Below, in pieces: positions 18,724 through 59,036 of a DNA stretch of 64,000 bases. The position numbers and the translations under genes are program-made. This stretch comes from a virus. The stretch's first letter is position 1, and every line of letters starts with the position of its first letter. Location of the stretch: positions 239,971 through 303,970 of IMG/VR virus record IMGVR_UViG_3300045996_002337; one strand, 5' to 3'. The notes under the pieces are model-generated. The model made no database searches. It saw only the letters and a list, made by a program, of their open reading frames with translations, and was not told the origin of the DNA.

Positions 18724-18800
18724 GGTGCGTCGTAAGGGATTCGAACCCTTGATCAAGTGTTTTAGAGGCACTAGCTTTAGACCGCTAAGCTAACGACGCG
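18724..18800 (-). tRNA. tRNA with anticodon CTA (amber-reading, suppressor-type)
   Basis: Acceptor gcgtcgt/acgacgc, anticodon region agtgc-cTCTAaa-acact (U33, CUA at 34-36, closing C-A mismatch), T-arm aagggTTCGAATccctt, encoded CCA. Confidence 0.6.
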
Positions 18801-19695: not shown

Positions 19696-19746
19696 ATGTT
19701 CCTATTATACACTACAATCACTTACCAAAGCTCAAATAAATGTGCT

Positions 19747-20827: not shown

Positions 20828-21166
20828 TCAGTCTACGTGAGGATTTTTGAAGACCACCTTCACGCCAAGTCTGTCAGCATGGGCAATTTCGCCAGCCACT
20901 CCAACCGAGGTATCGTGGCCATCAAACTGCAGCACCCACACCTCCTGACAGCAGCCAATAACAGCTCGACAGTAATCACACCATTGTTCCCAGGTGGGCT
21001 CCAGCGGCATGTACGGAAGAAGTTGGTACTGCTGCACCATTGGTGCAATGAGCGCGCAGTCAGGATTCTCCATCTGCAACTTGGCAAGATAGCTCAAGAA
21101 TTCCCCCTTGAGCTTCTCATTTTCAACTGTTCCTTTTGAGGGAATGGAAATGAAGACCGTTTTCAA
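20828..21166 (-). CDS. hypothetical protein
   Basis: 112 aa ORF. Confidence 0.5.
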   Translation of the reverse strand: MKTVFISIPSKGTVENEKLKGEFLSYLAKLQMENPDCALIAPMVQQYQLLPYMPLEPTWEQWCDYCRAVIGCCQEVWVLQFDGHDTSVGVAGEIAHADRLGVKVVFKNPHVD

Positions 21167-38560: not shown

Positions 38561-38779
38561 TCACGCCGATGGCGGAATGTGAACTTTGTTGGTGGCGATA
38601 TTCAGGTTGATGCGTCGTTCATGGACACTGATCGCCCACTGTCGAACCTCCTTCAGCTCCGCTTCCCAGATCGCTTCCTCTGGGCTGCTCTTTGCAGGTT
38701 TGTTGTCATGCAAAAGGCAGAAGAGCTTGTTGATGGCCCGCAGTGCGGCATCAGTTTTCTCCCACGTATCGTAGTTCAC
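38561..38779 (-). CDS. hypothetical protein
   Basis: 72 aa ORF, 4-nt overlap with the RNA ligase gene. Confidence 0.4.
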   Translation of the reverse strand: MNYDTWEKTDAALRAINKLFCLLHDNKPAKSSPEEAIWEAELKEVRQWAISVHERRINLNIATNKVHIPPSA

Positions 38780-43521: not shown

Positions 43522-43710
43522 TTAAGCTCTCACTGCGATAAAAATGTTGTAAATGGTGACGATCAGCGTGGTAACCGCAACGGCTTCAAGAAACTCCATC
43601 GTGGCCCTGGCACCAATGTGCATGTTGTCAATTGCTGGATTTCTATTGCCCTGGAAAAAGATAATCAGCCATGACGCAAAGAAGATACCGATGATGACTA
43701 ATGCAGACAT
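43522..43710 (-). CDS. small membrane protein
   Basis: 62 aa, hydrophobic. Confidence 0.35.
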   Translation of the reverse strand: MSALVIIGIFFASWLIIFFQGNRNPAIDNMHIGARATMEFLEAVAVTTLIVTIYNIFIAVRA

Positions 43711-45011
43711 CAGATTTCCACCAACTTATCAGTGCGGCTGTGATTGTAGGTGCAGAAGCGAAGGGAAGCGAACTCCTTGCCTTTGCTCTTCGACACTTCC
43801 TGGTAGGTGATCACGTGAGTACCAGCCAGCCACTTTTCGGGGTTGTTCTTCATGTCCTCACGCATTGCATCGGTGAAACCTGAGCCGACGTTGAAGCGAA
43901 CTTCAGTGCCGTTCTCGAGGAAGGCGATGCAGTTGACGCCGCCGACAGTGTTCTCAAGGCGCGACTTGGGACGACCTGGGTAGAAGCCAACGATTCGGGC
44001 GTCGACGTCGTAGAAGCGCTTGACCTTCACCCACGTGTAGGAGCGGCCCCATTCGTAAACAGCGTCCTCATTCTTGAGAATCAGGCCTTCACGTTCTGCC
44101 TTCTGCTTTGTCTCGTCGTCGATGCGCTCGTTGCAGTACGCGACCATGTCAGCGTAGTTCTGAACCTTGCGACCTTCGGTCAGCTTGATCTTCGTGAGAC
44201 CTTCGAGGAGGGCGGTGAGTGTCTCGCGCGTCTTGCCGTTGGTGATCGTCGTCTTCTGTGCAACCCAGTCGGTGAGCGGCATGATGAAGAAGGCGCGGAA
44301 CATCAGGGACTTCTTGGCGTCCACGTTCTTGCTGCCCTTGGCGTTCATCGTCTGCTCGAACGTCGTGCCGAGGGTTTCACCGTCCAACACGAAGTCTTGC
44401 CCGTAACGCTTGCGAATTTCGAGCAGCTCCTCGTCGAAGATGCCGTTGAGGTGGTCCGAAGGCTTGCCGCCACGCGCACGGTACTCTACGACGCCGTCCT
44501 TGACGAACGCGAATTGGCGGGTGCCGTCGTACTTGATATCCGCTTGGCAGGGGAACGTGACGTACTTTTCGAACTCGTCTTCGTCCTCGCACTTTTCGGC
44601 GAGCTGTTGATCCCAGCTGGGGATCGGATCGTTGGGCCATACCTTGTTGAAGGTGTCAGCCGAGAAGCCTGCTTTGGGGTCCTGATCGATCACACGCTCG
44701 AGATAGTCGGCGGTGTCCTTCGTAAAGTAGCTCAGAATGTTGGTGACAGCGGAGCGGGCTGCATTGCCGCTCAGATCACGCGTAGCGAGCGCATCCAGAA
44801 CGCTGAACACCGGCCCGAGAATGCCGTCCGTTTCGGCGTACTTTGCGGGACGATCGAACTTCTTGACGCCGAACGTGGTGTACGGGTCCATCGCGTAACG
44901 CATGAGCTTGCGGCCGTCGGCGTCCAGCGTGGCGAGCGCGGCTTGAATGGTCTTCTTCGAACCGGCGCCATTCGCGCTTTCGCAGGCTTTCAGGACTTCA
45001 ACGAATTTCAT
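43710..45011 (-). CDS. ATP-dependent DNA ligase
   Basis: Motif I ADIKYDGTR, motif IV EREGLILKNED, motif V YTWVKVKRF. Confidence 0.8.
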   Translation of the reverse strand: MKFVEVLKACESANGAGSKKTIQAALATLDADGRKLMRYAMDPYTTFGVKKFDRPAKYAETDGILGPVFSVLDALATRDLSGNAARSAVTNILSYFTKDTADYLERVIDQDPKAGFSADTFNKVWPNDPIPSWDQQLAEKCEDEDEFEKYVTFPCQADIKYDGTRQFAFVKDGVVEYRARGGKPSDHLNGIFDEELLEIRKRYGQDFVLDGETLGTTFEQTMNAKGSKNVDAKKSLMFRAFFIMPLTDWVAQKTTITNGKTRETLTALLEGLTKIKLTEGRKVQNYADMVAYCNERIDDETKQKAEREGLILKNEDAVYEWGRSYTWVKVKRFYDVDARIVGFYPGRPKSRLENTVGGVNCIAFLENGTEVRFNVGSGFTDAMREDMKNNPEKWLAGTHVITYQEVSKSKGKEFASLRFCTYNHSRTDKLVEI

Positions 45012-46747: not shown

Positions 46748-47209
46748 GTGGCAAAAAAACGCATCCCAAGCTTGGTGGTTGAACGAGCTGAAGACCAGGG
46801 CAATTACTTCTATTTGAGCGTGCTCGAATATCGGCGCGAGAATTATCTCGTCATCATCGATAACATTACAGAAGATGGCATCGGGGCCTACGTACTTGAT
46901 TACGCGCAGCAAGAAGGTCTTGATCTTCGCCAACTTATGAGCGTCGTGACCGAGTGGTTCTATCGCGGCTCATATCGTTACCCGCTCTCATTTGAGTTTT
47001 CACGTCGTGGCATGGCGCACATGACGAACAGGATTCACAAGAATTTTGAACTTGCGCACGTCACCCGATTGATCGGAAACGACTTTAGGTTTGACCTCAC
47101 AGCCCCACCTAAAGTTCGTCGTCGTCGCGTTTCAATGATCCCGGCTGGAGTTGAGATCAAGCTCAGAAAATCAAGCGAGCGCGTAGAGGTTCTGAAGTTT
47201 CCGAAGTAG
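46748..47209 (+). CDS. hypothetical protein on the minority (plus) strand, GTG start
   Basis: 153 aa ORF with TAAGGA RBS 6 nt upstream of GTG. Convergent 39-nt overlap with the 3' end of the nucleotidyltransferase gene. Confidence 0.4.
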   Translation: MAKKRIPSLVVERAEDQGNYFYLSVLEYRRENYLVIIDNITEDGIGAYVLDYAQQEGLDLRQLMSVVTEWFYRGSYRYPLSFEFSRRGMAHMTNRIHKNFELAHVTRLIGNDFRFDLTAPPKVRRRRVSMIPAGVEIKLRKSSERVEVLKFPK

Positions 47210-48193
47210 CCATTCTTCAGCGGCCGCCTCCAGTTCGGGGGTCCGCTTTTGCAGGGTGGTCTCCTTGAGCTTGCGCTGGACAGTGTCGTCCAGTTCACGT
47301 AGGTGGGCTTCGATCACCGGCATGTCAACAAGGCCCTTCTTCACAGAAAGAAGGTACTCGGCATTGCTGCGCGGGAATGTGATCGCTCCAGTGTCCAATA
47401 GCTCGATGGCCTGCTCATAAACGCGGATGGCGTGGGACATCGACTTGTAATCCACCGCTTTTTCAGCAGCTCCAGTCGTGCGTTCGCCATACCCTGCGAT
47501 AAGCTTCTTCACAGCGGTGTTCAGCGTCTGCAGAGAAGAGGTCTCCAAGTAGCTACGTCCATTCAACTCAAGCGTACGAAGCACCCGGTTGTTGTTCGGC
47601 GTTTCAGAGGTGAGCAGCTCGGCTTCGCGTGCGATCACATCGATCACCTTTTCACCATCGATCAAGTCATCGAGCCGATACTCAGCTTTCTTTTCCTGCA
47701 AGGAAAGCTTAAGCTCTACAGCAGAGATAGCAGCGAGGACCTTGCGAGCTGCATTCAGACGCTCACCGCGTCGAACGTAGTCAAACGTCTGCTTCATCGC
47801 AAACCCGACCATCGAATAGACTTCGGCGTTCGTGAACTTTGCGATCAGTTCCTGAAGAAGCTCTTGCATCTCAGGAGGGGTGCTGGTATTCTTCACCCCG
47901 CCGAAGGCGATTTCAAGTGCGTAAGTTTGCCCTGCCACGAAGTCGCGAACGAACGTTTGAAGTGGGAAGTACTCCGTCTCGACACCATTATCAGGCATCG
48001 ATTTATCGACTGCAACAGGTTCACCGTCAGCGTCAACCCGCGTCTTGAAGATGCGAGGAGCTTTGCCTAGCAGCAAACTGTCGAGTGAGGGGAGGTACAC
48101 GACCTTGTTGTCGGTATCAGAAGTAGGCGTTGAGGTACCGTACAGCTTCGAGCCATATGTCACCTCAAAAAGATTCGTGGTTTGATCTGTCAA
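47171..48193 (-). CDS. predicted nucleotidyltransferase (Pol-beta superfamily)
   Basis: N-terminal YGSKLYGTSTPTSDTDNKVVY fits the hG[GS]x9-13[DE]h[DE] NTase signature. Confidence 0.55.
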   Translation of the reverse strand: MTDQTTNLFEVTYGSKLYGTSTPTSDTDNKVVYLPSLDSLLLGKAPRIFKTRVDADGEPVAVDKSMPDNGVETEYFPLQTFVRDFVAGQTYALEIAFGGVKNTSTPPEMQELLQELIAKFTNAEVYSMVGFAMKQTFDYVRRGERLNAARKVLAAISAVELKLSLQEKKAEYRLDDLIDGEKVIDVIAREAELLTSETPNNNRVLRTLELNGRSYLETSSLQTLNTAVKKLIAGYGERTTGAAEKAVDYKSMSHAIRVYEQAIELLDTGAITFPRSNAEYLLSVKKGLVDMPVIEAHLRELDDTVQRKLKETTLQKRTPELEAAAEEWLLRKLQNLYALA

Positions 48194-48237: not shown

Positions 48238-48738
48238 TCATTCGACCTCGAGCTCCTCGACGCGGTATGAGTTGTCACGTCTGCGTGAGTAGTCGTAGAC
48301 GTAGTACGGTGCGGAGGCGTAGTGATTACGCTCTTCCACCGGCACGTTCAGCGCGTCGAAGACCTTTGTCGCTGCTTTGCCCAGGTCTTCGAAGTAGACC
48401 TGAAGCTTTGCCTCGTATTCGAAATGTACCGCCTTGTTGTACATCTCAACGCGCTCCTTCTCGTCCCAGTAGGTCTGCGGCCACAGATCTTTCTTCAAAC
48501 CCTTCGGCTGCTTAGGTTGCAGTAACAGGTCTGGCCGTGGGGGTGGGCGGACGGCCACACTAATTGTGCTGAACATGACCGCGAACTTGTCGCGGATTTC
48601 CCAGTAGGCACGATCCGCCTCCTTGAGCATGAGGATGGCGTACTCAGCTTTGGCATGGTCAAGGTAGCCTTTTATCAGCTCCTCACCAGCGTCCTCGTAC
48701 TCTCCCCAGGATTCAATCACAACATAAATTTTGTTCAT
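48238..48738 (-). CDS. hypothetical protein
   Basis: 166 aa ORF. Confidence 0.5.
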   Translation of the reverse strand: MNKIYVVIESWGEYEDAGEELIKGYLDHAKAEYAILMLKEADRAYWEIRDKFAVMFSTISVAVRPPPRPDLLLQPKQPKGLKKDLWPQTYWDEKERVEMYNKAVHFEYEAKLQVYFEDLGKAATKVFDALNVPVEERNHYASAPYYVYDYSRRRDNSYRVEELEVE

Positions 48739-48757
48739 GCTGTGATTATATCACAAA

Positions 48758-49249
48758 TCAACTAACAGCGACTTCTTCGATCACACGATTGAACAGCTCA
48801 TCCATGATGGCGATGAAGCGGGTCTTGATACGCATTTCGTTCTTGATGCCGCGGAAGCCAGCCTCAAAATCAGTGATGGCTGCATCATCACCAAACTCTT
48901 GACGAATCTTCGCAATACCAACGGTGTAGAGCGGGGTCATCGTGGTGCCGGTGTTTGAGCGGGCGCCGTGATAGCCGATCGTATCGAGGAACTGCTGAGT
49001 GGCAATTGACATCATGCGGCCAAGCAGCTCCGGGCTCATGTGCTCCGGGCGATTGTAAAGCGTGGCGTCGTGAATGTACCCTTGAAACTTCGGGTTCTTG
49101 GTCTGCGCCGTGCGAGCACGGGCGCAGTGACCACCCTGCGAAAGGGTTCCATCTTCACGAAGAATGGATGATGCAAAGAATTGCTTTTGCTCAGCAAGAC
49201 CATTGCGTTCGAAATCGGCAGCGGAAACGGGGTTGACTTTAACGGACAT
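48758..49249 (-). CDS. hypothetical protein
   Basis: 163 aa ORF. Confidence 0.5.
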   Translation of the reverse strand: MSVKVNPVSAADFERNGLAEQKQFFASSILREDGTLSQGGHCARARTAQTKNPKFQGYIHDATLYNRPEHMSPELLGRMMSIATQQFLDTIGYHGARSNTGTTMTPLYTVGIAKIRQEFGDDAAITDFEAGFRGIKNEMRIKTRFIAIMDELFNRVIEEVAVS

Positions 49250-49401
49250 AGATTTCTCCAGGATAGCAGGTGGAAGATGCCAGCACTTTGGTATTCCCTA
49301 GGGGAAGTTCCTACTCATGTGGCGGTTTGATATCGGTTACTCTTTGCAACCGATGAAGCTATTATAAGCTCCGGGTATTTATCGTGTTCAGCACGTTTAG
49401 G

Positions 49402-49974
49402 TTACACTCTACCTTGCTCGATCAAGTGTAACTGAAGCCAGACGACGTACGAGTAGGCCAAGGCGTGTGACTTCTTGAAGGAGTAACCGGACTCATCCTT
49501 CGCGTACAGAATCCTTCGTGCAGCTTCGCGGTCCTTCTTGTAGAGGCCGATGAAGTTCTTCTTGCCAGGTCGAATGAGGGCCATGATGTCAGCAACCTCC
49601 ATGATCGACGTTGGCTTCAGATCGCAGAGAAGATCGCCATGCTTGGCCAGCTGAAAAATCTTGTCATGGTTAGACGGAACGAGCAGCAGCTTCCAATCGG
49701 GTTCTTTCTTCAGCAGCTCGTCAATCTCGGCTCTGCTTGTAAAGTGCTTGTACACAGTGAGGTGGAGAAAGTCAACCTTCAGGTAGCCCAGGTCCTCTGC
49801 CTCTTCATATGGGATTGCCGCTAGGCCGGTCACCGGGTCCTTTGCAATTTTTTGTGGATACACTCCACATGGATGTGGAGTCAGCTTGCCGTCTTTCAGC
49901 AAACTGGCCCGCACCCACGTTTTAAAGAGGGTGGTTGGCTTGAAATCGGGGGTGATGTCAATATCGACGTCCAA
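49402..49974 (-). CDS. DnaE-like (Pol III alpha family) polymerase fragment: catalytic DxD and downstream palm/finger motifs
   Basis: MDVDIDITPDF parallels DnaE MPDFDVDF. LGYLKVDFL parallels GLVKFDFLGL. SGYSFKKSHALAYSYVVWLQ parallels GYGFNKSHSAAYALVSYQ. Confidence 0.55.
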   Translation of the reverse strand: MDVDIDITPDFKPTTLFKTWVRASLLKDGKLTPHPCGVYPQKIAKDPVTGLAAIPYEEAEDLGYLKVDFLHLTVYKHFTSRAEIDELLKKEPDWKLLLVPSNHDKIFQLAKHGDLLCDLKPTSIMEVADIMALIRPGKKNFIGLYKKDREAARRILYAKDESGYSFKKSHALAYSYVVWLQLHLIEQGRV

Positions 49975-49975
49975 A

Positions 49976-50218
49976 TTAAATGTCCCTCATGTTGTCAAGC
50001 TTAATCATCATTACGATCTGTGGTACCGCTTCTCGCCATCTTAACATGATCAGTGGGTCATCAGACTCACAAATCAGGATGTCAAAATATCCACGACGGA
50101 CAGCATGGAGGTTCAGTAGCGCAGTATTGAACACACGTGAATAGAAAGCCTTTGAATGCCCATCCATGCCCTCGAAGATCTTTCGAGTCATAGACCCAAT
50201 TCCTTCGTCGCCTTGCAA
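49976..50218 (-). CDS. hypothetical protein
   Basis: 80 aa ORF. Confidence 0.4.
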   Translation of the reverse strand: MQGDEGIGSMTRKIFEGMDGHSKAFYSRVFNTALLNLHAVRRGYFDILICESDDPLIMLRWREAVPQIVMMIKLDNMRDI

Positions 50219-50952
50219 AAATCGGTAAACATGTCGCGTGTCTTTTCAGACTGGTTGATCCGCGAGATCATTGCACCAACCTGAACGGCATCTTCAAGCC
50301 GCAGCGAATCATCAGGAGTTTGGTTCTTAAGCCACTCTCTAAACGCTGTTGATGCTACTAGAAACCACGCAGAGAGCTTTCTTCGTTGCACCAGGTCGAG
50401 CACCTTGTTCACACCAACCGCCGTAAAAACATCACGCAACGGGACCTCATGACTTTGTGAGAGCTCAGTCACCAAATCAATGCTATCAATGAACTGCTTC
50501 GTCGGTGGAACAACCTTGTCATACCCCTGCAGGTACAGGGCGTACACGTTGTCGCGACACCACAATGATGGCTGCACGTTACCATTGTCCACCATTGCCT
50601 TAACGAAAGCCATTGGCGTCGGCATGTTCACGCGAAGAACGTGGTTAGCAAACTTGATGAACGTAGAAAAATACGACGAGGCGCTAAACGTTTCGATTGG
50701 TGGGACTGACCTTCTGTTGAGGCGCATCCACTCGCTGTAATAGGCGTAAGCGGCTTGACCAATTGGGCTTCGTAGCTCGTCAAGCTTCTCACGTTCACGA
50801 CAACGGTGATTCATGAACGTACGCTCACTCACGAAGTCATGATTGCAAAACGTGCAGCCCCACTTCACCTTACGTTGCAGCGGAGCTTCGGCCTCAACGG
50901 TTTGGTTTCTTCTTGCTGCTGCTTGGTTTCTCAGTGCTTCCCGATCCATCAC
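50188..50952 (-). CDS. hypothetical protein with zinc-finger-like CTFCNH...HRC
   Basis: 254 aa ORF. Confidence 0.5.
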   Translation of the reverse strand: MMDREALRNQAAARRNQTVEAEAPLQRKVKWGCTFCNHDFVSERTFMNHRCREREKLDELRSPIGQAAYAYYSEWMRLNRRSVPPIETFSASSYFSTFIKFANHVLRVNMPTPMAFVKAMVDNGNVQPSLWCRDNVYALYLQGYDKVVPPTKQFIDSIDLVTELSQSHEVPLRDVFTAVGVNKVLDLVQRRKLSAWFLVASTAFREWLKNQTPDDSLRLEDAVQVGAMISRINQSEKTRDMFTDFCKATKELGL

Positions 50953-51469
50953 CCACCTCTTTCTTGAGTTTCGTCAGTTCCTCTTTCTCCCACCCAAGTT
51001 CCTCCGCCATCTGCATGATCGTTTCACCATCGATGTTAATCGCATAGAGGGTAGCTTCACGCGTGGACACGTCGTAATACTGCTTGATGGCTTCTAACCG
51101 CAGCTTGGTCGCGCTCTTGGCACCAGGGGCCTTCAGCCATTGATACCTACGACTCTTGCCCGTGGCCGCCGCGGCCAACAGCTTAAACAGCAGTGCCTTC
51201 TCTTGTCCCAGAGAAAACCCATAGGGGTTAACAAACGTATTTAGCCGAATCAGCTGGGCGTGATCAGAAGTTCCAGTCATCCACCTCGCGATTACGAATG
51301 GTGAAGCTGCCTTCTTGTCCTCAGGGCTGAGGCGATCATACCACGTCATGTCCCGCCCGGAGATCTTTTCCAATCCGTCGAATAGATCAAACGCCACGTG
51401 TAATTCTCCAACCTGTAGTCCAAAGATCAACGCGAAAGAACCACTTGCCATCATGCTTTCCGAGACCAA
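50894..51469 (-). CDS. hypothetical protein (possible replication accessory; lies downstream of the clamp loader)
   Basis: 191 aa ORF. Confidence 0.45.
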   Translation of the reverse strand: MVSESMMASGSFALIFGLQVGELHVAFDLFDGLEKISGRDMTWYDRLSPEDKKAASPFVIARWMTGTSDHAQLIRLNTFVNPYGFSLGQEKALLFKLLAAAATGKSRRYQWLKAPGAKSATKLRLEAIKQYYDVSTREATLYAINIDGETIMQMAEELGWEKEELTKLKKEVGDGSGSTEKPSSSKKKPNR

Positions 51470-51511
51470 CCCGTATCATGCGGTTATTTTTATCAAGTGG
51501 TAGCTTTGTAA

Positions 51512-51859
51512 TCATGCGAGCTCAACGATGTACGTAGTTGGTGATGTTTCAGTAATTTTAGCACGAACCTTCCACCCCGCGAAGCTGATGTAAGGACCCT
51601 CGGTTGCAGTGAAGTGAATCTTCAAATCTTCAGTTGCCTCAACAGCGCCATCAATGACGTGCTCCATGAGCGCGCTCTGAATTCCAGCAGGGAGCTGAGT
51701 GAAGAAGCAGGTGCCAATTGGCCATGTATCGGTAATCATAGTTGTTTTTCCTGTAGTTTTAGGCACCGCTGACAGCGACGCCGCGTAAACCAAAAAGAGC
51801 GTCTTCGCTTCTGAAAAGGATTCGACCATGGCGTCCACAAGTGAAAGCCGAGGCGACAC
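51512..51859 (-). CDS. hypothetical protein
   Basis: 115 aa ORF. Confidence 0.45.
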   Translation of the reverse strand: MSPRLSLVDAMVESFSEAKTLFLVYAASLSAVPKTTGKTTMITDTWPIGTCFFTQLPAGIQSALMEHVIDGAVEATEDLKIHFTATEGPYISFAGWKVRAKITETSPTTYIVELA

Positions 51860-51883
51860 CTCCAGTTCATGTCATCGTCTCAA

Positions 51884-52825
51884 TCACAGAAGCGCAGCAA
51901 TCTCAATGAAGAGTGCGGCGATCTGCAGTTCAGGATCTGACACGAATGAGTGTTGATACTGATACTGTGCAATGAGGACGACGGCTTCATCTTGCGCCTT
52001 CAGCTTCTTGCAGCGGTGAAGATTGTCGTAGAGAAAGCGATAGACCTCCAACAGCTCTTCCTTCGTGGCGGTTTCACACACGAGTTTACGGCACGCGCGG
52101 ATGTCTCCAGCTTCAAGTAGGGGTAGGAGCTGGAGCTTCCAGTCGTGTGCGGCCCCACCACCGTCGATCTGCAGTTTGCCACCAATAGAACCGCTCTCAA
52201 GGAGCTGGATGATCTTGCGGAAGTCTGGATAACCGGCGGCGACAACCTTCTCGAGGTCTTCAACTTCAAACGTGATGTCCTCAGCAACAAGGATGTCGGC
52301 AGCCTTGAGCAGCACGTCATCTTTTGACGGAGCCGCGAACACGAACTCTTGAAACCGTGAACGAAGCGCCGGTGTGATCTTGTTGATGTAATTACACGTC
52401 GCGATGTAGCGGCAGGATGTTGAAGTAGATTCAATGAGGTCACGGAGCAGGGCTTGTGCGTCATGACCAAGGTAATCAAACTCCTCTAGGCGGACCACCT
52501 TGAACTTACCAATCGCCATGGTCATGGCGAAGTTCTTCACCTTGTCCCGCATTGCATCAATTTTTTCGTCTGAGCAGTTGACCTTCAGGACATCACTTCG
52601 ATCGACACCGAGGGACCTGATCAACGCCAGTGACATGGAACTTTTGCCAGTCCCTGGGCCCCCCTGCAGAAGCAGGTTTGGAATTTGGCCTTCTGACACA
52701 TAGCTGTCAAATTTCTGACGGTCACGTTCATTAGTAACGATGACATCACTGACCTCTTTAGGCCGATATTTTTCACACCAAAGTTTTTTCACAGTCATGG
52801 TTCCAGATAAAACAAGGCACGACAC
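51884..52825 (-). CDS. clamp-loader ATPase (T4 gp44 / RFC small-subunit family)
   Basis: KYRPK, Walker A GGPGTGKSS, and PDFRK motifs shared with T4 gp44. Confidence 0.8.
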   Translation of the reverse strand: MSCLVLSGTMTVKKLWCEKYRPKEVSDVIVTNERDRQKFDSYVSEGQIPNLLLQGGPGTGKSSMSLALIRSLGVDRSDVLKVNCSDEKIDAMRDKVKNFAMTMAIGKFKVVRLEEFDYLGHDAQALLRDLIESTSTSCRYIATCNYINKITPALRSRFQEFVFAAPSKDDVLLKAADILVAEDITFEVEDLEKVVAAGYPDFRKIIQLLESGSIGGKLQIDGGGAAHDWKLQLLPLLEAGDIRACRKLVCETATKEELLEVYRFLYDNLHRCKKLKAQDEAVVLIAQYQYQHSFVSDPELQIAALFIEIAALL

Positions 52826-52863
52826 CTTCTATGGTGTCATTTTAACATGTAAGACGCGAGGTC

Positions 52864-54078
52864 TTACTTCTTTTCAGGGGTCGTAATTGACGAGGCTCGC
52901 TTGAACCCCGTTGTGGTGCGCGCGTCAACCACAGTGTTCGGATCAGGCTTAATAAGACCTAATGAAGATTTCGTGATCTGCTCCCGAACCGGTGGGGCAT
53001 CAACGCTCACCACGCTTGTTAAGCCAGTCTGTGGCGCTGGCTCTTCGGCCGGCGTAGGAAGGTCAACGTTATCCATTACCTGAACGTCTTCACGTTTTAC
53101 CTCTGGCACTTCCGAGACCTCTAGAAACTCGTCCTCGGGTTCTGGCTGAGGAGGTTCTTCCTTTGATGACTCGACAGGAAAAACCACAGGTGGAAGAGAG
53201 TCCCCTTCTTTCACAGAAGGATAGAGACGTTCGAAAATTGGAGGCTGCGGGTCTTCATTCAGCTTTCGCTGTTGCTCCGCATGAAAGGCTTCTTCCTCTG
53301 GATCTGGAACGTAGTGCTGCGGGCCCAAAGGCTCCTCGACCACGCTGTGCTTCACGGGATCGTAGGCAGCCAGCTTCTCCTGAAGAGGGGTTTCCTTTTG
53401 AGACTTGCGATGGGCCCAGAGGAAGTTGCCAGCGATGATCAGGAAGATGGCCAACGGGTCGAACACGAAGATGATCATGAGGATCACCCACTTCACTGCC
53501 TGCTCTACTGGCACGTCAAAGGCCTTCGCAACGTAGAGAATCGGGCCGGCTTTTGCTTCAGTGCCAATCTGGGTGATCTGCAAAGCGGGCAATTCCCGAT
53601 CAATGGTCGCGAGTTGTTCAGTGACCGCCTTTTGCTCACCTTCAAACTGCTTCATCAGGGTGATTCGCGAACGAGAGTAGTTTGAAGGCAGCTTTGCGAT
53701 CTGATCGTCAATCTGTTTCTTACGTTCAAGCAGTCGTGTTTGCTGTTCCTTCAACACGCTCACCTTCAGCTCACCTTCCTTCGTTCCAAGGATCGCCTTC
53801 TGAAACTCACCGGACAAATATCCGGCGGCGCCCGCAGAAGTAATCGTCATTGTCACCGCCGCGGCTACAAGAGCATACGACTTCATCAGCTTTGAAAGGT
53901 CCTTCCAGTAAGTGTATAGGAGGGACACAACCACGATCTTGCCAACGTCTAGTGCGATAGCGAGTGCGATGATGATTGGATTGGCACCGAAAAGTGCCGA
54001 GATGCCAATGACAGAAACGAGAGAACCGAGCCCTTCGATAAAGAGGGCTGCGGCAAAGGTGAGAATGATGAAGAACAT
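52864..54078 (-). CDS. membrane protein with coiled-coil and Pro/Glu-rich C-terminus
   Basis: 404 aa with several TM helices. Confidence 0.5.
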   Translation of the reverse strand: MFFIILTFAAALFIEGLGSLVSVIGISALFGANPIIIALAIALDVGKIVVVSLLYTYWKDLSKLMKSYALVAAAVTMTITSAGAAGYLSGEFQKAILGTKEGELKVSVLKEQQTRLLERKKQIDDQIAKLPSNYSRSRITLMKQFEGEQKAVTEQLATIDRELPALQITQIGTEAKAGPILYVAKAFDVPVEQAVKWVILMIIFVFDPLAIFLIIAGNFLWAHRKSQKETPLQEKLAAYDPVKHSVVEEPLGPQHYVPDPEEEAFHAEQQRKLNEDPQPPIFERLYPSVKEGDSLPPVVFPVESSKEEPPQPEPEDEFLEVSEVPEVKREDVQVMDNVDLPTPAEEPAPQTGLTSVVSVDAPPVREQITKSSLGLIKPDPNTVVDARTTTGFKRASSITTPEKK

Positions 54079-54096
54079 TAGGGGTCTTTGTAAACT

Positions 54097-54657
54097 TTAG
54101 ACGACGTGGGCGCCGAACTGCAGGGTGACAAAGGAACACTTCTCAATCATTTCAGCAGTCAACACGGTCGTGATACGACGGGGTTTCAATGTTTCTAGAT
54201 CGAAGATCGTACTAACGACTTGATCACCAATTGAGTAGTTTTCCAACACTTCACGGTGCGGCATCTCGAGCCGATACGGAAAAATTGTGACGGTCGAAAA
54301 GCTGTTATATCCCATGTCAAGCACCTCTTTCAGCGCTTGCATATTTGGTTCACCGCGCTCAATTGATTCCAAAACTGAAAGCGAAATTTTCAAGCGCAGG
54401 TTCGCTGTTAATGTTGTCACCTGCTCCTCGAAAGGAATTTCAAAGTCGATTGGGAGAGCCTCAGCCGGAATAAAATTTGGTGGGTTTGAGAATGCCGAAT
54501 CGTCTTCACTCTTGATAATCTTACTTCCACGAACAGTCTCGGCGGGCCCTCGCATCTGCTCACCAATTTGAATTTTTGGGTTGCACAGCTGAAGCCCACG
54601 GATGGATAGATCCATGAGGGCCTTATCCGTGTACTTGATAAGATTGGATTTTGACAT
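54097..54657 (-). CDS. hypothetical protein (start at internal Met MSKSN)
   Basis: Internal start abuts the GroES-like gene stop. Weak N-terminal resemblance to T4 gp45 is not sufficient to call. Confidence 0.35.
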   Translation of the reverse strand: MSKSNLIKYTDKALMDLSIRGLQLCNPKIQIGEQMRGPAETVRGSKIIKSEDDSAFSNPPNFIPAEALPIDFEIPFEEQVTTLTANLRLKISLSVLESIERGEPNMQALKEVLDMGYNSFSTVTIFPYRLEMPHREVLENYSIGDQVVSTIFDLETLKPRRITTVLTAEMIEKCSFVTLQFGAHVV

Positions 54658-54658
54658 T

Positions 54659-54982
54659 TTAGAAGCTTGTCTTGTACGTTTCGGTGACGTCGTCCGTGAC
54701 AAGCACAATCTTCGAGTCGTCGGTTTTCCACATCTTCTCACCGTCAACTTCGGTGCCAAAGGACCACATGAGGGCCTCGATCAGAATGTATTCACCGACG
54801 GCGACTTGGGCGTCAGGTCCGACTGCGACGACCTTACCCCAACGTGGGAGCTTCTGGCTTGAATCAAGGGTGGGCAAGATGATGCCACCTTCGGTCTTGC
54901 GGTCAGTAAACTTTCCCTTGGACCCTGCGGTCTCATCGAGAAATTTGAACATGACGTTGTTCTTGAGGGGAAGGATGTTCAT
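54659..54982 (-). CDS. co-chaperonin GroES / T4 gp31-like
   Basis: MNILPLKNNVMFK...EGGIILP...GKVVAVGP...GEYILIE...KIVLV follows the GroES pattern. Confidence 0.6.
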   Translation of the reverse strand: MNILPLKNNVMFKFLDETAGSKGKFTDRKTEGGIILPTLDSSQKLPRWGKVVAVGPDAQVAVGEYILIEALMWSFGTEVDGEKMWKTDDSKIVLVTDDVTETYKTSF

Positions 54983-55005
54983 ATGAGTATGGTTATGTTA
55001 ACGGA

Positions 55006-55236
55006 TTATTTCCGCTTGAGTTGCTTGGCTTGACCAGACGTGTTCGCAGCCTCGACTGAGACCGCAAGAAAATCAACATCTGCGACGACGTCAGATTTAA
55101 CGCCGTCTTTTACGTCGATTGCATGCTTCCGCTGCTCGACTGCCTTTGGAATTGGTGCTGAGGCAAGTTGCTGCTTGATTGCAAGCAGTTCAAAATCGAT
55201 CAGTTCACCGCGTGCGCTGCGAATGAGTTGTCCCAT
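55006..55236 (-). CDS. hypothetical protein
   Basis: 76 aa ORF. Confidence 0.4.
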   Translation of the reverse strand: MGQLIRSARGELIDFELLAIKQQLASAPIPKAVEQRKHAIDVKDGVKSDVVADVDFLAVSVEAANTSGQAKQLKRK

Positions 55237-55309
55237 TGTATCGTTCTCCGGAGATTTTTAGGCGTGCGTCTATATATTGCACTTCTATATTTATAGGCAC
55301 CCGCGCAGC

Positions 55310-55951
55310 TTATTCGTGGAAAAATTCTTCAGCAGATACGTTCATCTTAACACAATCGACAACATGCAGCCCGATGATAAACAGGAGGTAACATGCACAG
55401 GATGAACCTCGACCAACACCCCAGACGACATCATTTGCCCTGAGCTGATCCAGAATGTAAATGATGGTTCTCATGAACTCCACCATCCCGCGTTGGTTGA
55501 CCTGATCCAGCTCAAAGGCGATGCGATCGATTGCTTCTTCAACCTGCTCGGGCGTGTAATCCGTGGGGCAGCGTTCCTCGAACTGTGAAGCGATGTATTC
55601 TTCAAGATCGAGAGTTTGATACTTTTCGGGCAGTTCCCACCCCATGTCGAGCGCAATTGGTTCCTGCCCGCCGACTTGAATTTGATCCTCGGCCGGCACC
55701 TGCGCATTGAAGGTTACGACATCGGGAGTTTCTTGAAGGACTCGAAGCTTTGAGGGAGGGACGCCCAAAAGCAGAAACCGGCCCAACTGGTCCGGTTCCA
55801 CTTCAGAAACTCCGTCGAAACGGAGTTTTCGGTTCGTCAGTTCAGATTGAAGTGAACGCATGATTCTCGGGTTGAGCTGCCAGGGTGGCAGCTTCTTCTT
55901 TCGAAACGCCAAGCACACTCCGTTCACTGACCTGCAGTTGGTGACGTGCAA
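55310..55951 (-). CDS. DnaE-like polymerase fragment: region ending at the hG[GS] motif, immediately N-terminal to the DxD motif
   Basis: RIAFELDQVNQRGMVEFMRTIIYILDQLRANDVVWGVGRGSSCACYLLFIIGLHVVDCVKMNVSAEEFFHE parallels DnaE [21 protein letters not shown]...[26 protein letters not shown]...ERFLNPER. True start probably internal. Confidence 0.5.
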   Translation of the reverse strand: MHVTNCRSVNGVCLAFRKKKLPPWQLNPRIMRSLQSELTNRKLRFDGVSEVEPDQLGRFLLLGVPPSKLRVLQETPDVVTFNAQVPAEDQIQVGGQEPIALDMGWELPEKYQTLDLEEYIASQFEERCPTDYTPEQVEEAIDRIAFELDQVNQRGMVEFMRTIIYILDQLRANDVVWGVGRGSSCACYLLFIIGLHVVDCVKMNVSAEEFFHE

Positions 55952-56165
55952 ACTTCATCAGCACGGTCATCACGGCATCCGTGAACGGAAACTCAGCGAA
56001 GAACATCGTGTTCTTGTCCCACATGCCCGTTTCGATGTACTTTTTCAACGAGGCCAGGTGGGCCTCGTTCGTCGGGTCGAAGAAGGAGCGGGCCGAGCCA
56101 TGGCGGCGAAGAATCGAAGAACGCGACATGAAATCAGTAGAACCAACATCGACGAATTCAGGCAT
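55842..56165 (-). CDS. hypothetical protein (overlaps the previous gene by about 110 nt; start uncertain)
   Basis: 107 aa ORF. Confidence 0.3.
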   Translation of the reverse strand: MPEFVDVGSTDFMSRSSILRRHGSARSFFDPTNEAHLASLKKYIETGMWDKNTMFFAEFPFTDAVMTVLMKFARHQLQVSERSVLGVSKEEAATLAAQPENHAFTSI

Positions 56166-56194
56166 TTGATTTCCAGTGGAGTTGCAATAGAAGA

Positions 56195-56223
56195 ATTATA
56201 CAATGAACCTGTGTTCTTGTACA
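56195..56223 (-). promoter_or_regulatory. promoter of the TGTACA-N17-TATAAT family
   Basis: Plus gaattatacaatgaacctgtgttcttgtaca. Confidence 0.45.
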
Positions 56224-56646
56224 TCACTTCTTGCGAGGATAGCAAGGACCTTGCGGTAGATGGGTGATGTCGCCATAACGTGGCAACCAATTTGTCACGC
56301 CACACTTCACACACTCGTAGTCATACTCGCCGTTGTGGCCCCCGACTGCACGTGAAATGTCCTTCCACTCGTGCTGCTCAACCGCATCAGTCAAGGTTGG
56401 GATGACGTTAGCTTCGACCCACTTTTGGACGCCCGCAGGCGTTCCGTCACTTCGATTGTCGTGCTGTTCCCGCATCAACTTGCCAAGCATCGAGGCACCA
56501 TCACCTTTGATCGTCACGCCTTCCAAAGTCGGGAAACGCTTCGGGCTGGACAGGTCCAAAAACGGGAGGCACCTCGACCTCACCGTGAGAACCGTCCTGG
56601 ACCAGTTGATGACACTTAACCCCACGCTTTTCGAGCCGCTCAACAC
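56224..56646 (-). CDS. hypothetical protein with C-terminal zinc ribbon (CVKCG...)
   Basis: 140 aa ORF. Its 5' 146 nt overlap the tail of the dCMP deaminase ORF in another frame. Confidence 0.4.
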   Translation of the reverse strand: MLSGSKSVGLSVINWSRTVLTVRSRCLPFLDLSSPKRFPTLEGVTIKGDGASMLGKLMREQHDNRSDGTPAGVQKWVEANVIPTLTDAVEQHEWKDISRAVGGHNGEYDYECVKCGVTNWLPRYGDITHLPQGPCYPRKK

Positions 56647-57058
56647 CTTCAGGTAGACGGTAGTGCTTGCGGTACACTACACGGGAAATCTTGGCCTGCA
56701 CGATCAGTTTCGCACATTCTGGGCAGGGAGAATAGGTGGTGTAGAGTGTCGCCCCGCGAGAGCTCACCCCACCATTGGCTGCAAGTTTGAGAATTGCGTT
56801 GGCCTCAGCGTGGAGAACTTCCTGCTTGGTTCGAACATTGCCATCTTCGTCATACATCTCGCATACATCGTCTTCACCTTCTGCACCCGCAGGCATGCCA
56901 TTGTAGCCATCCGAGATGATCTGACCATCCTTCACGATGAGGGCCCCCACCTGGGCACGGGTGGCTTTGGAGCGCTTTGACCAAACCTCAGCCATTTGCA
57001 TGTAGGCCTCATCGAGCTCGATGCGATTTGTGTTAACTTTGAGAATTGGTTTGTTCAT
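56501..57058 (-). CDS. dCMP deaminase
   Basis: HAEANAI and PCPECAK zinc-ligand motifs of the cytidine/dCMP deaminase family. Confidence 0.8.
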   Translation of the reverse strand: MNKPILKVNTNRIELDEAYMQMAEVWSKRSKATRAQVGALIVKDGQIISDGYNGMPAGAEGEDDVCEMYDEDGNVRTKQEVLHAEANAILKLAANGGVSSRGATLYTTYSPCPECAKLIVQAKISRVVYRKHYRLPEGVERLEKRGVKCHQLVQDGSHGEVEVPPVFGPVQPEAFPDFGRRDDQR

Positions 57059-57101
57059 GCTCCTATTTTAACACAGGAACATGAACGCAACATTTTCGTC
57101 T

Positions 57102-58331
57102 TCAGGTCGTTTTTGGCTTCTGATACACACGAACCCAATCAACCTTCAGGGCCTGAGGAAAGACTGAATCATCAATCCCATGGCGACCTGCCCATTGTCC
57201 GCCCAAAGCAAGGTTCAAGATGATGTGGGCGGGCGCGCCAAGTGTACCATCAGAGTACTTCCAAGGTGATTTTCGGACGTAGATTGCTGTGCCATCTACG
57301 TAGACCTTTGCGTTGTCCCAGTCCCACTCTAGACCTACGGTATGCCACCCTTCAGTGAACTTGTAGTCTGCCGGCCAATAGGTCCACTGCTTGTTGAACT
57401 TTGGATGGGCCCAGTAGAATGGAGCTGGATGTTTAGCGGTTCCAACCACGCCCGAATGAAGCATGTGCGGCCGATCCTCTACTCCGTTATTGACGAACTC
57501 GAAGATGTCGATTTCTGGAGGCCAGCTCAACTTGCCTTTATCCGAAACATCTGAGTTGAGCCAGAACGCCGCTGAGCATCCAACGCCAGGTGGCATCCAA
57601 ACTCGGGCTTCGTAGTAGCCCCAGTAGAAGGTTGCATCTGAGCGAATTAACCCAGATTCATAGTTGACGCCATCGGGGTGATCGTTACGAACCTTGTGAG
57701 CTGTTAGCTCGAGGGCCCCATCTTTAACGATGTGGTTATTGTTGTCACGGTAGCGCTGCACCTCGTCGTTGAGGTAATCACCGGTCCCAGCAGAATAAAT
57801 CGTGCGAGTGTGCCACTTGCTTCGATCAAGCTCAGTTCCATTAAACTCATCGTTAAACACGAGTTCGTACCCTGCAGGCACGAATGAACCTTCAGTGCTG
57901 GTGATTGGTTGCGTGAGAGAAATTGCTTCACATTCCATGAGAGAAATGGAATCAACATGGCAGCGGCTGCCATTTGCGATAACTGCGACAACGCCTTTGG
58001 TAAAGATCGGCGCGATGAAGCGAACTTCATAGTCCTTCCACTCAGTGCCCGTCATCTTCACTTCGTAGCTGCGGAATGTTTCATCGGCGGCTGTTTTGAA
58101 TCTCACCATTCCAGTAGCAAAGCCAGTGGTGGCAGTCATTTTTGCGCGAATCTTCAGAACATATGACGCACGTGCCTTGAGCAGGCCATGATTAAAAAGC
58201 TGCTTGGCGAGATAGCCAATGTTGAGCGCCTTACCACCTGGTCGCTCCGTGCTAGAAATTACAGTTGCGGTGCTTAACGTCCAGTTTGCAGCAACGTTTT
58301 CAAAAGTTCCGTCCTTGACCATTTCAACCAT
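57102..58331 (-). CDS. glycoside hydrolase family 16 (beta-glucanase/laminarinase-like) with N-terminal carbohydrate-binding-like domain
   Basis: GH16 catalytic motif EIDIFEF. Confidence 0.65.
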   Translation of the reverse strand: MVEMVKDGTFENVAANWTLSTATVISSTERPGGKALNIGYLAKQLFNHGLLKARASYVLKIRAKMTATTGFATGMVRFKTAADETFRSYEVKMTGTEWKDYEVRFIAPIFTKGVVAVIANGSRCHVDSISLMECEAISLTQPITSTEGSFVPAGYELVFNDEFNGTELDRSKWHTRTIYSAGTGDYLNDEVQRYRDNNNHIVKDGALELTAHKVRNDHPDGVNYESGLIRSDATFYWGYYEARVWMPPGVGCSAAFWLNSDVSDKGKLSWPPEIDIFEFVNNGVEDRPHMLHSGVVGTAKHPAPFYWAHPKFNKQWTYWPADYKFTEGWHTVGLEWDWDNAKVYVDGTAIYVRKSPWKYSDGTLGAPAHIILNLALGGQWAGRHGIDDSVFPQALKVDWVRVYQKPKTT

Positions 58332-58424: not shown

Positions 58425-59036
58425 TTAAAAACTGTAGTTGGCGGCCGCGATACGGCATTTTACCTGCCACGTCTTGTTGCTGTCCGGCTTCAAGCAGGCT
58501 TTCAGAGTGGCGTTCGGGTCCTTGAGCACGAGACCTTCATCTTCAGCGCTAAGAGTGTCGAAGAGAGCCGTGAAACCACCGGTGAAGCACTTTGCCAGCG
58601 TGATGCGATCGGCGATGCGGTACTGATCGGACTCTGCTTCACCGCCGAATTTTTGGCGCATTGCAAGAACGCGCGATGCGAAGGTAGTTCCAACGAGGGA
58701 AACGCCATCACGAACGAGCTGATCGAAGATGAAGAGCTCATTCTTCGGCCCGCCGGTGACCTTGCTGTGGAGCAGCTCAGCCGTGTAGACGTTCCAGCCT
58801 TCGGAGCCAGAGAAGAACTTGATGTGGTCAGCTTGTGGGGTCCACAGCTTGTGATCGTCGTTGTGGCGGGTCTTGAAGATGACTTGGTCACCCTTCGCGA
58901 AGATCACCGTGCACGTGCCGTTCTTCTTTTTCTGCGCAACGAAGCCACGCTTCTGGTAAAAGCCAAGCATCGGTTTAGCGATTTTTTGTTCCGGACGAGG
59001 TGGCCACCAATACTGGTACTCGTTGTAATCCATCAC
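58425..59036 (-). CDS. ligase-like nucleotidyltransferase-fold protein (atypical motif I KKNG)
   Basis: Motif-IV-like DEGLVLKD and motif-V-like TWQVKC. 203 aa. Confidence 0.4.
   Translation of the reverse strand: MMDYNEYQYWWPPRPEQKIAKPMLGFYQKRGFVAQKKKNGTCTVIFAKGDQVIFKTRHNDDHKLWTPQADHIKFFSGSEGWNVYTAELLHSKVTGGPKNELFIFDQLVRDGVSLVGTTFASRVLAMRQKFGGEAESDQYRIADRITLAKCFTGGFTALFDTLSAEDEGLVLKDPNATLKACLKPDSNKTWQVKCRIAAANYSF

What the first reader, a model, noticed from the sequence alone, without database searches (positions are those of the whole stretch)
49402..55951. DnaE-type polymerase palm split between two ORFs 5.3 kb apart, exactly between the hG[GS] and DxD motifs
ORF 55310-55951 ends ...VGRGSSCACYLLFIIGLHVVDCVKMNVSAEEFFHE, matching DnaE [16 protein letters not shown]...ERFLNPER. 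ORF 49402-49974 begins MDVDIDITPDF...LGYLKVDFL...FKKSHALAY, matching DnaE MPDFDVDF...LVKFDFLGL...FNKSHSAAY. The break therefore falls inside the catalytic nucleotidyltransferase fold. Seven or so unrelated genes lie in between (GroES-like, clamp loader and others). No intein-like sequence flanks either end. Both pieces are much shorter than the corresponding DnaE regions. The two pieces may be a separately encoded heterodimeric polymerase, or a rearranged relic.
Basis: partly seen in the sequence, partly recalled or inferred. Interest (0 to 1): 0.75.

Follow-up and report, generated by a model that had tools for sequence, protein, structure and literature searches.

The report
Split minimal DnaE polymerase, jumbo phage
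Two small genes 5.3 kb apart in this giant-phage genome each encode half of a stripped-down bacterial-type (Pol III alpha) DNA polymerase active site; the split is real and conserved, but it was already described by sequence analysis in 2021 and has never been tested in the laboratory.

Summary

The pieces are not relics. Both are stand-alone genes of uniform length in 92-96 jumbo-phage genomes and in hundreds of metagenomic protein clusters. Their motifs are invariant and substitutions are mostly synonymous.

The phenomenon is published: Iyer et al. 2021 (PMC7824862) described this "minimal, split Pol III alpha" of group 2.2 jumbo phages, which accompanies a family-B polymerase. This window is a new, uncultivated member; its closest isolate is Ralstonia phage RsoM2USA, at 50% and 34% identity with the same gene order.

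Three additions come from this work:
- Rare natural single-chain forms exist, and one circularly permuted form.
- Some of these sit next to replicase or helicase-like genes.
- Each half is stably linked to replisome genes.

The most likely reading is an obligate heterodimeric accessory DNA polymerase. The biochemistry is untested.

The parts
55310..55861 (-). N-piece gene (183 aa). It has a lineage-specific N-terminal domain of about 75-88 aa, then the first part of the Pol III alpha palm with the NTP-binding WGVGRGSS motif. The longest ORF reading extends to the TTG at 55951.
   Evidence: PF07733 E=2e-8; phrog_11127 E=6e-33; identical 183-aa protein P0121 on record from JGI
55400..55423 (-). 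WGVGRGSS, the hG[GS]-type NTP-binding motif. It is invariant in 41 aligned homologues.
49402..49974 (-). C-piece gene (190 aa, TTG start). It encodes the rest of the palm, with all three catalytic aspartates, plus a much-reduced fingers region. The thumb is absent or reduced to a beta-hairpin.
   Evidence: (phrog_11778 E=7e-59)
49957..49971 (-). DVDID. D4 and D6 align with Taq Pol III alpha D463/D465, the metal-binding DxD.
49771..49779 (-). KVD. K66 and D68 align with Taq K616/D618, the third catalytic carboxylate.
49465..49479 (-). FKKSH, equivalent to the DnaE FNKSH finger motif. F166, K167, S169 and H170 are invariant.
50188..50952 (-). ORF of 254 aa (phrog_11058, unknown function, C2H2-like Cys/His motif near the N-terminus). 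It is a conserved upstream neighbour of the C-piece in this window, RsoM2USA, 121Q, PA5oct and contig L010, and is a possible partner (inference only).
51884..52825 (-). Clamp-loader large subunit (RFC/gp44-like AAA+). It belongs to the block that travels with the N-piece in relatives.
   Evidence: (phrog_168 E=6e-74)
50894..51469 (-). Clamp-loader small subunit (gp62-like).
   Evidence: (phrog_225)
54659..54982 (-). GroES-like co-chaperonin. It lies downstream of the N-piece, mostly after one small ORF, in this window, PA5oct, Vibrio phage 2.275.O, RsoM2USA and L010. This is context and is not claimed as part of the polymerase.

Best explanation
The window comes from an uncultivated jumbo myovirus-type phage (349.7-kb contig) of Iyer et al.'s group 2.2. 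That group includes the RaK2, 121Q, PA5oct, XacN1 and RsoM2USA lineage. The two ORFs are the two subunits of that group's minimal split C-family (Pol III alpha-like) polymerase.

The N-piece supplies the first strand and helices of the Pol-beta-like nucleotidyltransferase palm, with the GRGS loop that holds the incoming dNTP triphosphate. The C-piece supplies the strands with the three metal-binding aspartates (D4, D6, D68), K66, and a short fingers module (FQL, IRPG, FKKSH). Neither chain has a complete active site.

The two chains must therefore associate non-covalently, without protein splicing, to form one composite catalytic centre of about 370 aa. That enzyme has no PHP, thumb, clamp-binding or OB domain.

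I infer that it acts as an accessory DNA polymerase at the phage replisome, in a specialised strand, gap-filling or repair role, alongside the family-B replicase found in cultured relatives. The sequence and fold assignments, the conservation and the existence of fusions are shown here. The association of the two chains, the polymerase activity and the biological role are inferred.
For: Family and fold:
- Pfam PF07733 above its cutoff for the N-piece.
- PHROG 'DNA polymerase' families the size of each piece match over essentially the whole profile.
- The C-piece profile hits Taq Pol III alpha collinearly, with D4/D6 aligned to D463/D465 and K66/D68 to K616/D618.
- The AlphaFold2 models are confident, pLDDT 88.6 and 90.8.

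Functional constraint:
- GRGS, DxDxD, KxD, RPG and FKxSH are invariant in 41+41 homologues that are as little as 45-63% identical to the window proteins.
- Lengths are uniform, 188-191 aa and 181-186 aa.
- N-piece dN/dS is about 0.14; C-piece pN is 0.13 against pS 0.81.

The halves work together:
- They are found in nearly equal numbers of phage records, 96 and 92, and lie on the same record in every genome where both positions were read (this window).
- They lie 4.7 to about 44 kb apart in those genomes.
- Natural single-chain forms exist: P0345 and two relatives (375-376 aa), and P0389 (336 aa).
- One circularly permuted form exists, P0388 (398 aa).

Replication context:
- The N-piece is linked to clamp-loader genes. 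The C-piece is linked to primase and DnaB in 121Q, PA5oct and Slickus01.
- Fused forms lie beside a PF03090 Replicase gene and an AAA_25 helicase-like gene.

Published description: PMC7824862, sections 3.4.1 and 3.5.
Against: - There is no biochemical or genetic evidence for activity or for heterodimer formation, here or in the literature searched.
- A co-fold of the two chains could not be run.
- The enzyme lacks a thumb, a clamp-binding domain and a proofreading domain, so processive replication is doubtful.
- PF17657 (fingers) is below its cutoff for the window C-piece, 18.8 against 22 bits.
- Relatives have a complete PolB, so the enzyme may be dispensable.
- The PolB of this particular genome was not located.
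Confidence: 0.72

Rival explanations
1. The pieces are a decayed or rearranged relic of a dnaE gene, made redundant by a family-B polymerase.
For: Relatives carry an intact PolB with an exonuclease domain (PMC7824862). The pieces are far shorter than DnaE and lack most of its domains.
Against: Both pieces are intact ORFs of uniform length in 92-96 phage genomes and in hundreds of metagenomic clusters. All catalytic motifs are invariant. Substitutions are mostly synonymous. The AlphaFold2 models are confident and compact.
Confidence: 0.02
2. The two halves are joined after translation by a split intein, as in cyanobacterial DnaE.
For: Cyanobacterial dnaE is encoded in two distant genes joined by trans-splicing (literature, for example PMC2664965). 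PolB of the related phage MIJ3 carries a split intein (PMC6892783).
Against: The N-piece stops directly after the DnaE-homologous helix (..EEFFHE, then TAA). The C-piece starts directly with M-D-V-D-I-D. There is no room for the roughly 100-aa N-intein or the roughly 35-aa C-intein, and no Cys/Ser/Thr at +1. Pfam finds no Hint/intein hit at E<=1.
Confidence: 0.01
3. The heterodimer is a Pol-beta-fold nucleotidyltransferase that is not a template-directed DNA polymerase. Examples would be a terminal transferase, an RNA or tRNA 3'-end repair enzyme, or a nucleotide-signal synthase.
For: The reduction is extreme, with no thumb and no clamp-binding domain. The window is rich in RNA-repair and tRNA functions close by: an RlaP-like nucleotidyltransferase at 47171-48193, an RNA ligase, 28 tRNAs and a tmRNA.
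Against: DnaE-specific finger motifs are invariant (FQL, IRPG, FKKSH; the His is equivalent to the residue proposed as the DnaE sugar gate, from my own knowledge). Conserved linkage is to the clamp loader, primase and helicase, not to RNA-repair genes. Fused homologues lie next to a Replicase gene and a helicase-like gene.
Confidence: 0.12
4. The two proteins act separately and do not form one enzyme. For example, the N-piece could be an NTP-binding regulator and the C-piece a metal-dependent DNA-binding factor.
For: The genes lie up to about 44 kb apart in some phages, in different gene blocks. The N-piece N-terminal domain varies between lineages.
Against: The two pieces are found in nearly equal numbers of records (96 and 92) and share a record in every genome checked. 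The halves are complementary parts of one fold, cut in a loop. Natural fusions exist in both orders. Neither half has a complete active site.
Confidence: 0.05

Closest known systems
Minimal split DNA polymerase III alpha of group 2.2 jumbo phages (Iyer, Anantharaman, Krishnan, Burroughs, Aravind 2021, Viruses 13:63; PMC7824862)
   Same: The anatomy is the same: two stand-alone genes, an N-terminal NTP-binding half and a C-terminal Mg2+- and template-binding half, with no other Pol III domains, in phages with an RFC-type clamp loader. The window proteins match the piece-sized PHROG families 11127 and 11778. The locus is syntenic with RsoM2USA.
   Different: This is a new, uncultivated phage: no megablast match in the phage collection and at most 50%/34% identity to isolates. 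Here and in RsoM2USA the halves are only about 5 kb apart and bracket the clamp-loader genes, rather than being 'distantly located'. The passages of the paper retrieved do not mention single-chain or permuted relatives.
Bacterial replicative C-family polymerases (DnaE, PolC)
   Same: Pol-beta-like palm with a GS motif, three catalytic Asp residues, the KxD motif and the FQL, RPG and FNKSH finger motifs. Fold matches to 2HNH, 5FKU, 2HPI, 3E0D, 5LEW and 3F2B.
   Different: About 370 aa in two chains, against 1160 aa or more in one chain. It has no PHP domain, no recognisable thumb, no beta-clamp-binding or HhH domain, no OB fold and no tau-binding domain.
Cyanobacterial split DnaE with a naturally split intein (Synechocystis, Nostoc)
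   Same: dnaE is encoded as two genes at separate loci.
   Different: That system is full-size and is covalently rejoined by trans-splicing, at a split site further downstream in the protein (position from my own knowledge). Here there is no intein and the cut lies between the GS and DxD motifs.
Split family-B polymerases: two-gene gp43 of some T4-like Aeromonas phages and split PolB of Methanothermobacter (both from my own knowledge); PolB of phage MIJ3, which carries a split intein (PMC6892783)
   Same: A DNA polymerase is assembled from two separately encoded polypeptides, in phages prone to gene fragmentation by homing endonucleases. GIY-YIG and NUMOD3 genes lie between the halves in relative L010.
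   Different: These belong to an unrelated polymerase family with a different fold. The MIJ3 PolB split involves a split intein, whereas the present pieces have no intein. In the gp43 and Methanothermobacter cases I believe the cuts fall between domains rather than inside the catalytic nucleotidyltransferase fold (from my own knowledge, not checked).

Membership tests
C-family DNA polymerase catalytic core (Pol III alpha: PF07733 palm, PF17657 fingers) | Pol-beta-like palm N-terminal part with the hG[GS] NTP-binding motif | tested here: met
C-family DNA polymerase catalytic core (Pol III alpha: PF07733 palm, PF17657 fingers) | Three catalytic carboxylates (DxD plus a third Asp) at positions homologous to those in DnaE | tested here: met
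   D4/D6 align with Taq D463/D465 and D68 with D618 in the profile alignment. All are invariant. That these Taq residues are the catalytic ones is from my own knowledge of the Taq and E. coli structures.
C-family DNA polymerase catalytic core (Pol III alpha: PF07733 palm, PF17657 fingers) | Fingers domain | tested here: inconclusive
   PF17657 scores 18.8 bits against a cutoff of 22 for the window protein, but it is recorded for several homologues. The FQL, RPG and FKKSH motifs align with Taq 608-721 and 809-824. Only about 120 aa are present, against roughly 350 in DnaE.
C-family DNA polymerase catalytic core (Pol III alpha: PF07733 palm, PF17657 fingers) | PHP domain N-terminal to the palm | tested here: not met
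   No PHP (PF02811) hit in either piece or in the upstream ORF 55842-56165 at E<=1. Iyer et al. also report its absence.
C-family DNA polymerase catalytic core (Pol III alpha: PF07733 palm, PF17657 fingers) | Thumb, beta-clamp-binding/HhH, OB-fold and tau-binding domains | tested here: not met
   The C-piece ends just after the FNKSH helix. Taq 465-608 is replaced by about 52 aa, and everything after about residue 830 is absent.
C-family DNA polymerase catalytic core (Pol III alpha: PF07733 palm, PF17657 fingers) | Template-directed DNA polymerase activity | not testable with these tools
   This needs biochemistry. No published assay was found.
Group 2.2 jumbo-phage minimal split Pol III alpha (Iyer et al. 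2021) | Two stand-alone genes, an NTP-binding half and a Mg2+/template-binding half | tested here: met
   description in PMC7824862.
Group 2.2 jumbo-phage minimal split Pol III alpha (Iyer et al. 2021) | Orthology to the pieces found in RaK2, 121Q, PA5oct, XacN1 and Atu_ph07-type phages | tested here: met
   tblastn finds 96 and 92 records in those phages. phrog_11778 E=7e-59 and phrog_11127 E=6e-33. Synteny with RsoM2USA.
Group 2.2 jumbo-phage minimal split Pol III alpha (Iyer et al. 2021) | Host genome is a jumbo phage with an RFC-type clamp loader and a family-B polymerase | tested here: inconclusive
   Proteins identical or 99% identical to the two pieces are on record from a 349,660-bp contig. 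The clamp loader is present in the window. PolB is not in the window and was not retrievable for this genome. It is present in the closest isolate.
Split-intein trans-spliced DnaE | N- and C-intein (Hint) halves at the break, with a nucleophile at +1 | tested here: not met
   No Hint hit at E<=1. The pieces end and begin within DnaE-homologous sequence, and residue +1 is Met/Asp.

The most novel reading that the evidence does not exclude
The roughly 370-aa two-chain enzyme is a fully competent DNA polymerase with a composite active site, which would make it the smallest C-family polymerase known. It would be an essential replisome component that divides labour with PolB, for example one strand each or a primer hand-off. 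The conserved 254-aa upstream neighbour of the C-piece (50188-50952) would supply the missing DNA-gripping or clamp-tethering function as a third subunit. The rare single-chain and permuted relatives next to AEP-type Replicase and helicase-like genes would then be the replicases of small mobile elements, showing that minimal DnaE is not specific to jumbo phages.
Probability: 0.25. Interest if true: 0.7.

Novelty: new member of a known kind. Interest (0 to 1): 0.35.

Why it matters
C-family polymerases are the bacterial replicases and have no close cellular relatives. A naturally minimised, two-chain version marks out the irreducible catalytic core, and Iyer et al. proposed it as a model of the ancestral enzyme. 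If it is active, it would be a compact polymerase scaffold and a natural example of an active site assembled across a subunit interface. It would also raise the question of why phages that already own a family-B replicase keep a second, bacterial-type polymerase. The idea is already published, so this window mainly adds another, more compactly arranged example. It also yields leads for experiments: the single-chain natural fusions are ready-made constructs, and the conserved neighbour is a candidate partner.

Tried and rejected
- Megablast of 49000-56500 against the phage collection found no match, so the phage itself is not in that collection.
- A co-fold of the two halves failed. A MAFFT block alignment of the fused query with unpaired homologues misaligned.
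- I tried to find the family-B polymerase of this same genome. The exact-protein look-up found no record. The metagenome scan with the RsoM2USA PolB did not return the 349,660-bp contig.
- The promoter and terminator consensus scan of 48500-57200 was at chance level for promoters and uninformative about operon structure.
- Literature searches for any experimental work on a split or minimal DnaE polymerase returned only intein papers and Iyer et al. 2021.
- A PDB sequence search for the conserved neighbour ORF 50188-50952 found nothing meaningful.
- The pseudogene, intein and independent-function readings were considered and rejected; see the rival explanations.


Full report
**What is in the sequence**

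All genes in the region run on the minus strand. The ORF at 49402-49974 (190 aa, TTG start, TAA stop) begins MDVDIDITPDF and contains KVDFL, FQL, ALIRPG and FKKSHALAY.

The ORF at 55310-55951 ends in WGVGRGSSCACYLLFIIGLHVVDCVKMNVSAEEFFHE, followed by TAA. Its real start is almost certainly the ATG at 55861, giving 183 aa. An identical 183-aa protein is on record from JGI, from a 349,660-bp metagenomic contig, and homologues are 181-186 aa.

The two genes are 5335 nt apart. Nine same-strand ORFs lie between them. These include the large and small subunits of an RFC/gp44-gp62-type clamp loader, a GroES-like protein and a predicted 404-aa protein of unknown function.

**Are the pieces really Pol III alpha?**

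Yes. For the N-piece:
- It passes Pfam's curated cutoff for PF07733, the Pol III alpha NTPase/palm domain (E=2.1e-8; profile positions 2-95 only).
- Its AlphaFold2 model has pLDDT 88.6.

For the C-piece:
- A 41-sequence profile hits Taq Pol III alpha (3E0D) at E=4e-5, in three collinear segments.
- In that alignment D4/D6 pair with Taq D463/D465, K66/D68 with K616/D618, and FKKSH with FNKSH at 809-824.
- Its model has pLDDT 90.8.
- Its 12 best Foldseek PDB matches are all Pol III alpha.

Both pieces also hit the full-length phage DnaE family phrog_405, at profile positions 336-428 and 577-685 of 1190.

**Where is the break?**

N-piece residue 211 (213-aa numbering) aligns with E. coli DnaE 392 and Taq 454. 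C-piece residue 4 aligns with Taq 463. The chain is therefore cut in the short loop between the helix that follows the GS motif and the strand that carries DxD, with only about 3 residues unaccounted for.

Neither end has room for intein halves, and Pfam shows no Hint or PHP domain at E<=1 in the pieces or in ORF 55842-56165.

Compared with DnaE:
- The thumb region (Taq 465-608) is reduced to about 52 residues, including a beta-hairpin.
- The fingers are cut to about 120 residues.
- Everything after the FNKSH helix is missing.
- The first 75-88 residues of the N-piece form a small beta/alpha domain. It is conserved in this sub-lineage (LRFDGVS motif) but absent or different in others.

**Not a relic**

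- tblastn finds the C-piece in 96 phage records and the N-piece in 92. All are jumbo or large myovirus-type phages: RaK2, 121Q, PBECO4, GAP32, CBB, PA5oct, XacN1, Xoo-sp13, RsoM2USA, SCTP-2, Atu_ph07 and the 141-kb Alishewanella phage Slickus01.
- The metagenomic protein database holds 1011 C-piece clusters and 237 N-piece clusters at E<=1e-5. The 120 best hits for each piece are almost all 188-191 aa and 181-186 aa.
- In alignments whose members are as little as 63% (C) and 45% (N) identical to the window proteins, every catalytic or substrate-binding motif is invariant.
- I compared the window with a relative on an NCBI metagenome-assembled contig (L010; 81% and 63% amino-acid identity). The N-piece has dN/dS of about 0.14. 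The C-piece has pN 0.13 against a saturated pS of 0.81.

**Evidence that the halves form one enzyme**

Each half lacks part of the active site. GRGS is on one chain, and the three aspartates and the finger motifs are on the other. They are found in nearly equal numbers of phage records and share a record in every genome checked.

An exhaustive profile search of 1.84 billion representative proteins returned almost only stand-alone C-pieces. It also returned three kinds of natural fusion:
- P0345 (375 aa) has the N-piece at 8-181 and the C-piece at 191-374. PF07733 runs straight through the junction. Two further 376-aa relatives come from other samples.
- P0389 (336 aa) has the N core at 6-109 and the C-piece at 113-322.
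- P0388 (398 aa) is circularly permuted, with the C-piece at 6-193 followed by the N core at 233-309.

Fusions in both orders, joined by short linkers, are what I would expect if the two polypeptides pack into one fold with their cut ends adjacent.

**Genomic context**

In RsoM2USA and in contig L010 the gene order is the same as in the window: dCMP deaminase, N-piece, small ORF, GroES, 404-aa unknown-function ORF, clamp-loader large, clamp-loader small, 254-aa ORF, C-piece.

In PA5oct the same genes form two blocks about 44 kb apart:
- N-piece, small ORF, GroES, clamp-loader large.
- 254-aa ORF, C-piece, then primase and DnaB after two further genes.

121Q shows the second block as well. Each half is therefore stably embedded in replisome gene clusters. 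In this window's lineage the two blocks simply abut. In L010, GIY-YIG and NUMOD3 homing-endonuclease genes lie between the halves. This is compatible with, but does not prove, an origin of the split by endonuclease-mediated gene fracture.

The fused homologues lie beside a PF03090 Replicase gene (L009) and an AAA_25 helicase-like gene (L008). This again points to DNA replication.

**Other polymerases**

No ORF in the window exceeds 565 aa, and none of the larger ORFs scanned is a polymerase. The closest isolate, RsoM2USA, has an intact 807-aa family-B polymerase with an exonuclease domain, a stand-alone DEDDh (epsilon-like) exonuclease and a FEN-type 5'-3' exonuclease. I could not retrieve the rest of this window's own genome to confirm its PolB.

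**What is already known**

Iyer, Anantharaman, Krishnan, Burroughs and Aravind (Viruses 2021; PMC7824862) described this feature. [quoted passage not shown] They suggested that it cooperates with PolB in synthesis of one strand or in repair.

GenBank and PHROGs already label many of these genes "DNA polymerase (III alpha)". I found no experimental follow-up, and the 2026 review of jumbo phages does not mention it.

**Verdict**

The "heterodimeric polymerase" reading is the best supported one, and the "relic" reading is rejected. The phenomenon is a known kind, of which this uncultivated phage is a new member.

Three points are not mentioned in the passages of the 2021 paper retrieved:
- The compact arrangement of the two halves around the clamp loader.
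- The conserved 254-aa neighbour of the C-piece.
- The natural single-chain and permuted forms outside obvious jumbo-phage context.

Polymerase activity, subunit association and biological role remain inferred.

Noticed in passing
window 1197-10394 and 18641-18799 (minus strand): There is a large tRNA array: ARAGORN tRNA genes. Two adjacent genes have a CUA anticodon (amber-suppressor type, labelled tRNA-Pyl by the tool), and one unusual tRNA-Ser has anticodon ACT.
   Followed up: partly
window, minus-strand ORFs throughout: TAG is almost never used as a stop codon. Only 2 of 74 likely minus-strand genes end in TAG, against 36 TAA and 36 TGA. The TAG trinucleotide is also depleted (312, against 535 TAA and 1562 TGA). 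Together with the two tRNA(CUA) genes, this raises the possibility of amber suppression or recoding at some stage of infection. The two polymerase pieces both end in TAA and are not affected.
   Followed up: partly
window 19306-19705 (minus strand): A phage-encoded tmRNA is predicted, flagged by ARAGORN with an asterisk, with tag peptide ANEANYRMAA.
   Followed up: no
window 50188-50952 (minus strand): A 254-aa protein of unknown function (phrog_11058) has a C2H2-like CxxC...HxxC motif near its N-terminus. Its gene lies just upstream of the C-piece, directly or after one small gene, in this window, RsoM2USA, 121Q, PA5oct and L010. It is a candidate partner of the split polymerase. It has no structural or family match.
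   Followed up: partly
window 21163-22563 and 26589-27698 (minus strand): NAD+ salvage genes are present: a nicotinamide phosphoribosyltransferase and a bifunctional NMN adenylyltransferase/Nudix protein. These are typical of jumbo phages that counter NAD-depleting defences.
   Followed up: no
window 38776-40137, 43710-45011, 47171-48193, 58425-59036 (minus strand): A nucleic-acid end-repair set is present: an RNA ligase, an ATP-dependent DNA ligase, an RlaP-like Pol-beta-fold nucleotidyltransferase just downstream of the C-piece, and a second short ligase-like ORF (PF01068 below its cutoff).
   Followed up: no
window 4349-5296, 35032-36729, 57102-58331 (minus strand): Cell-envelope enzymes and binding proteins are present: an L,D-transpeptidase (YkuD) with a peptidoglycan-binding domain, a 565-aa protein with a C-terminal OmpA domain, and a GH16 glycosyl hydrolase.
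   Followed up: no
L010 5415-5939 and 6903-7439 (NCBI GCA_045628685.1 contig JAZQPV010000069.1): In an 81%/63%-identical relative, binned by NCBI as Acinetobacter sp., GIY-YIG and NUMOD3 homing-endonuclease genes lie between the two polymerase halves. They flank the clamp-loader large subunit gene. The window has no such insertions.
   Followed up: no
L008 871-2067, L009 3171-4181, L007 1066-2193: Single-chain (P0345, P0389) and circularly permuted (P0388) minimal DnaE proteins occur on short metagenomic contigs. Two of them lie next to an AEP-type Replicase gene (PF03090) or an AAA_25 helicase-like gene. This suggests that minimal DnaE also serves small mobile elements or smaller phages.
   Followed up: partly
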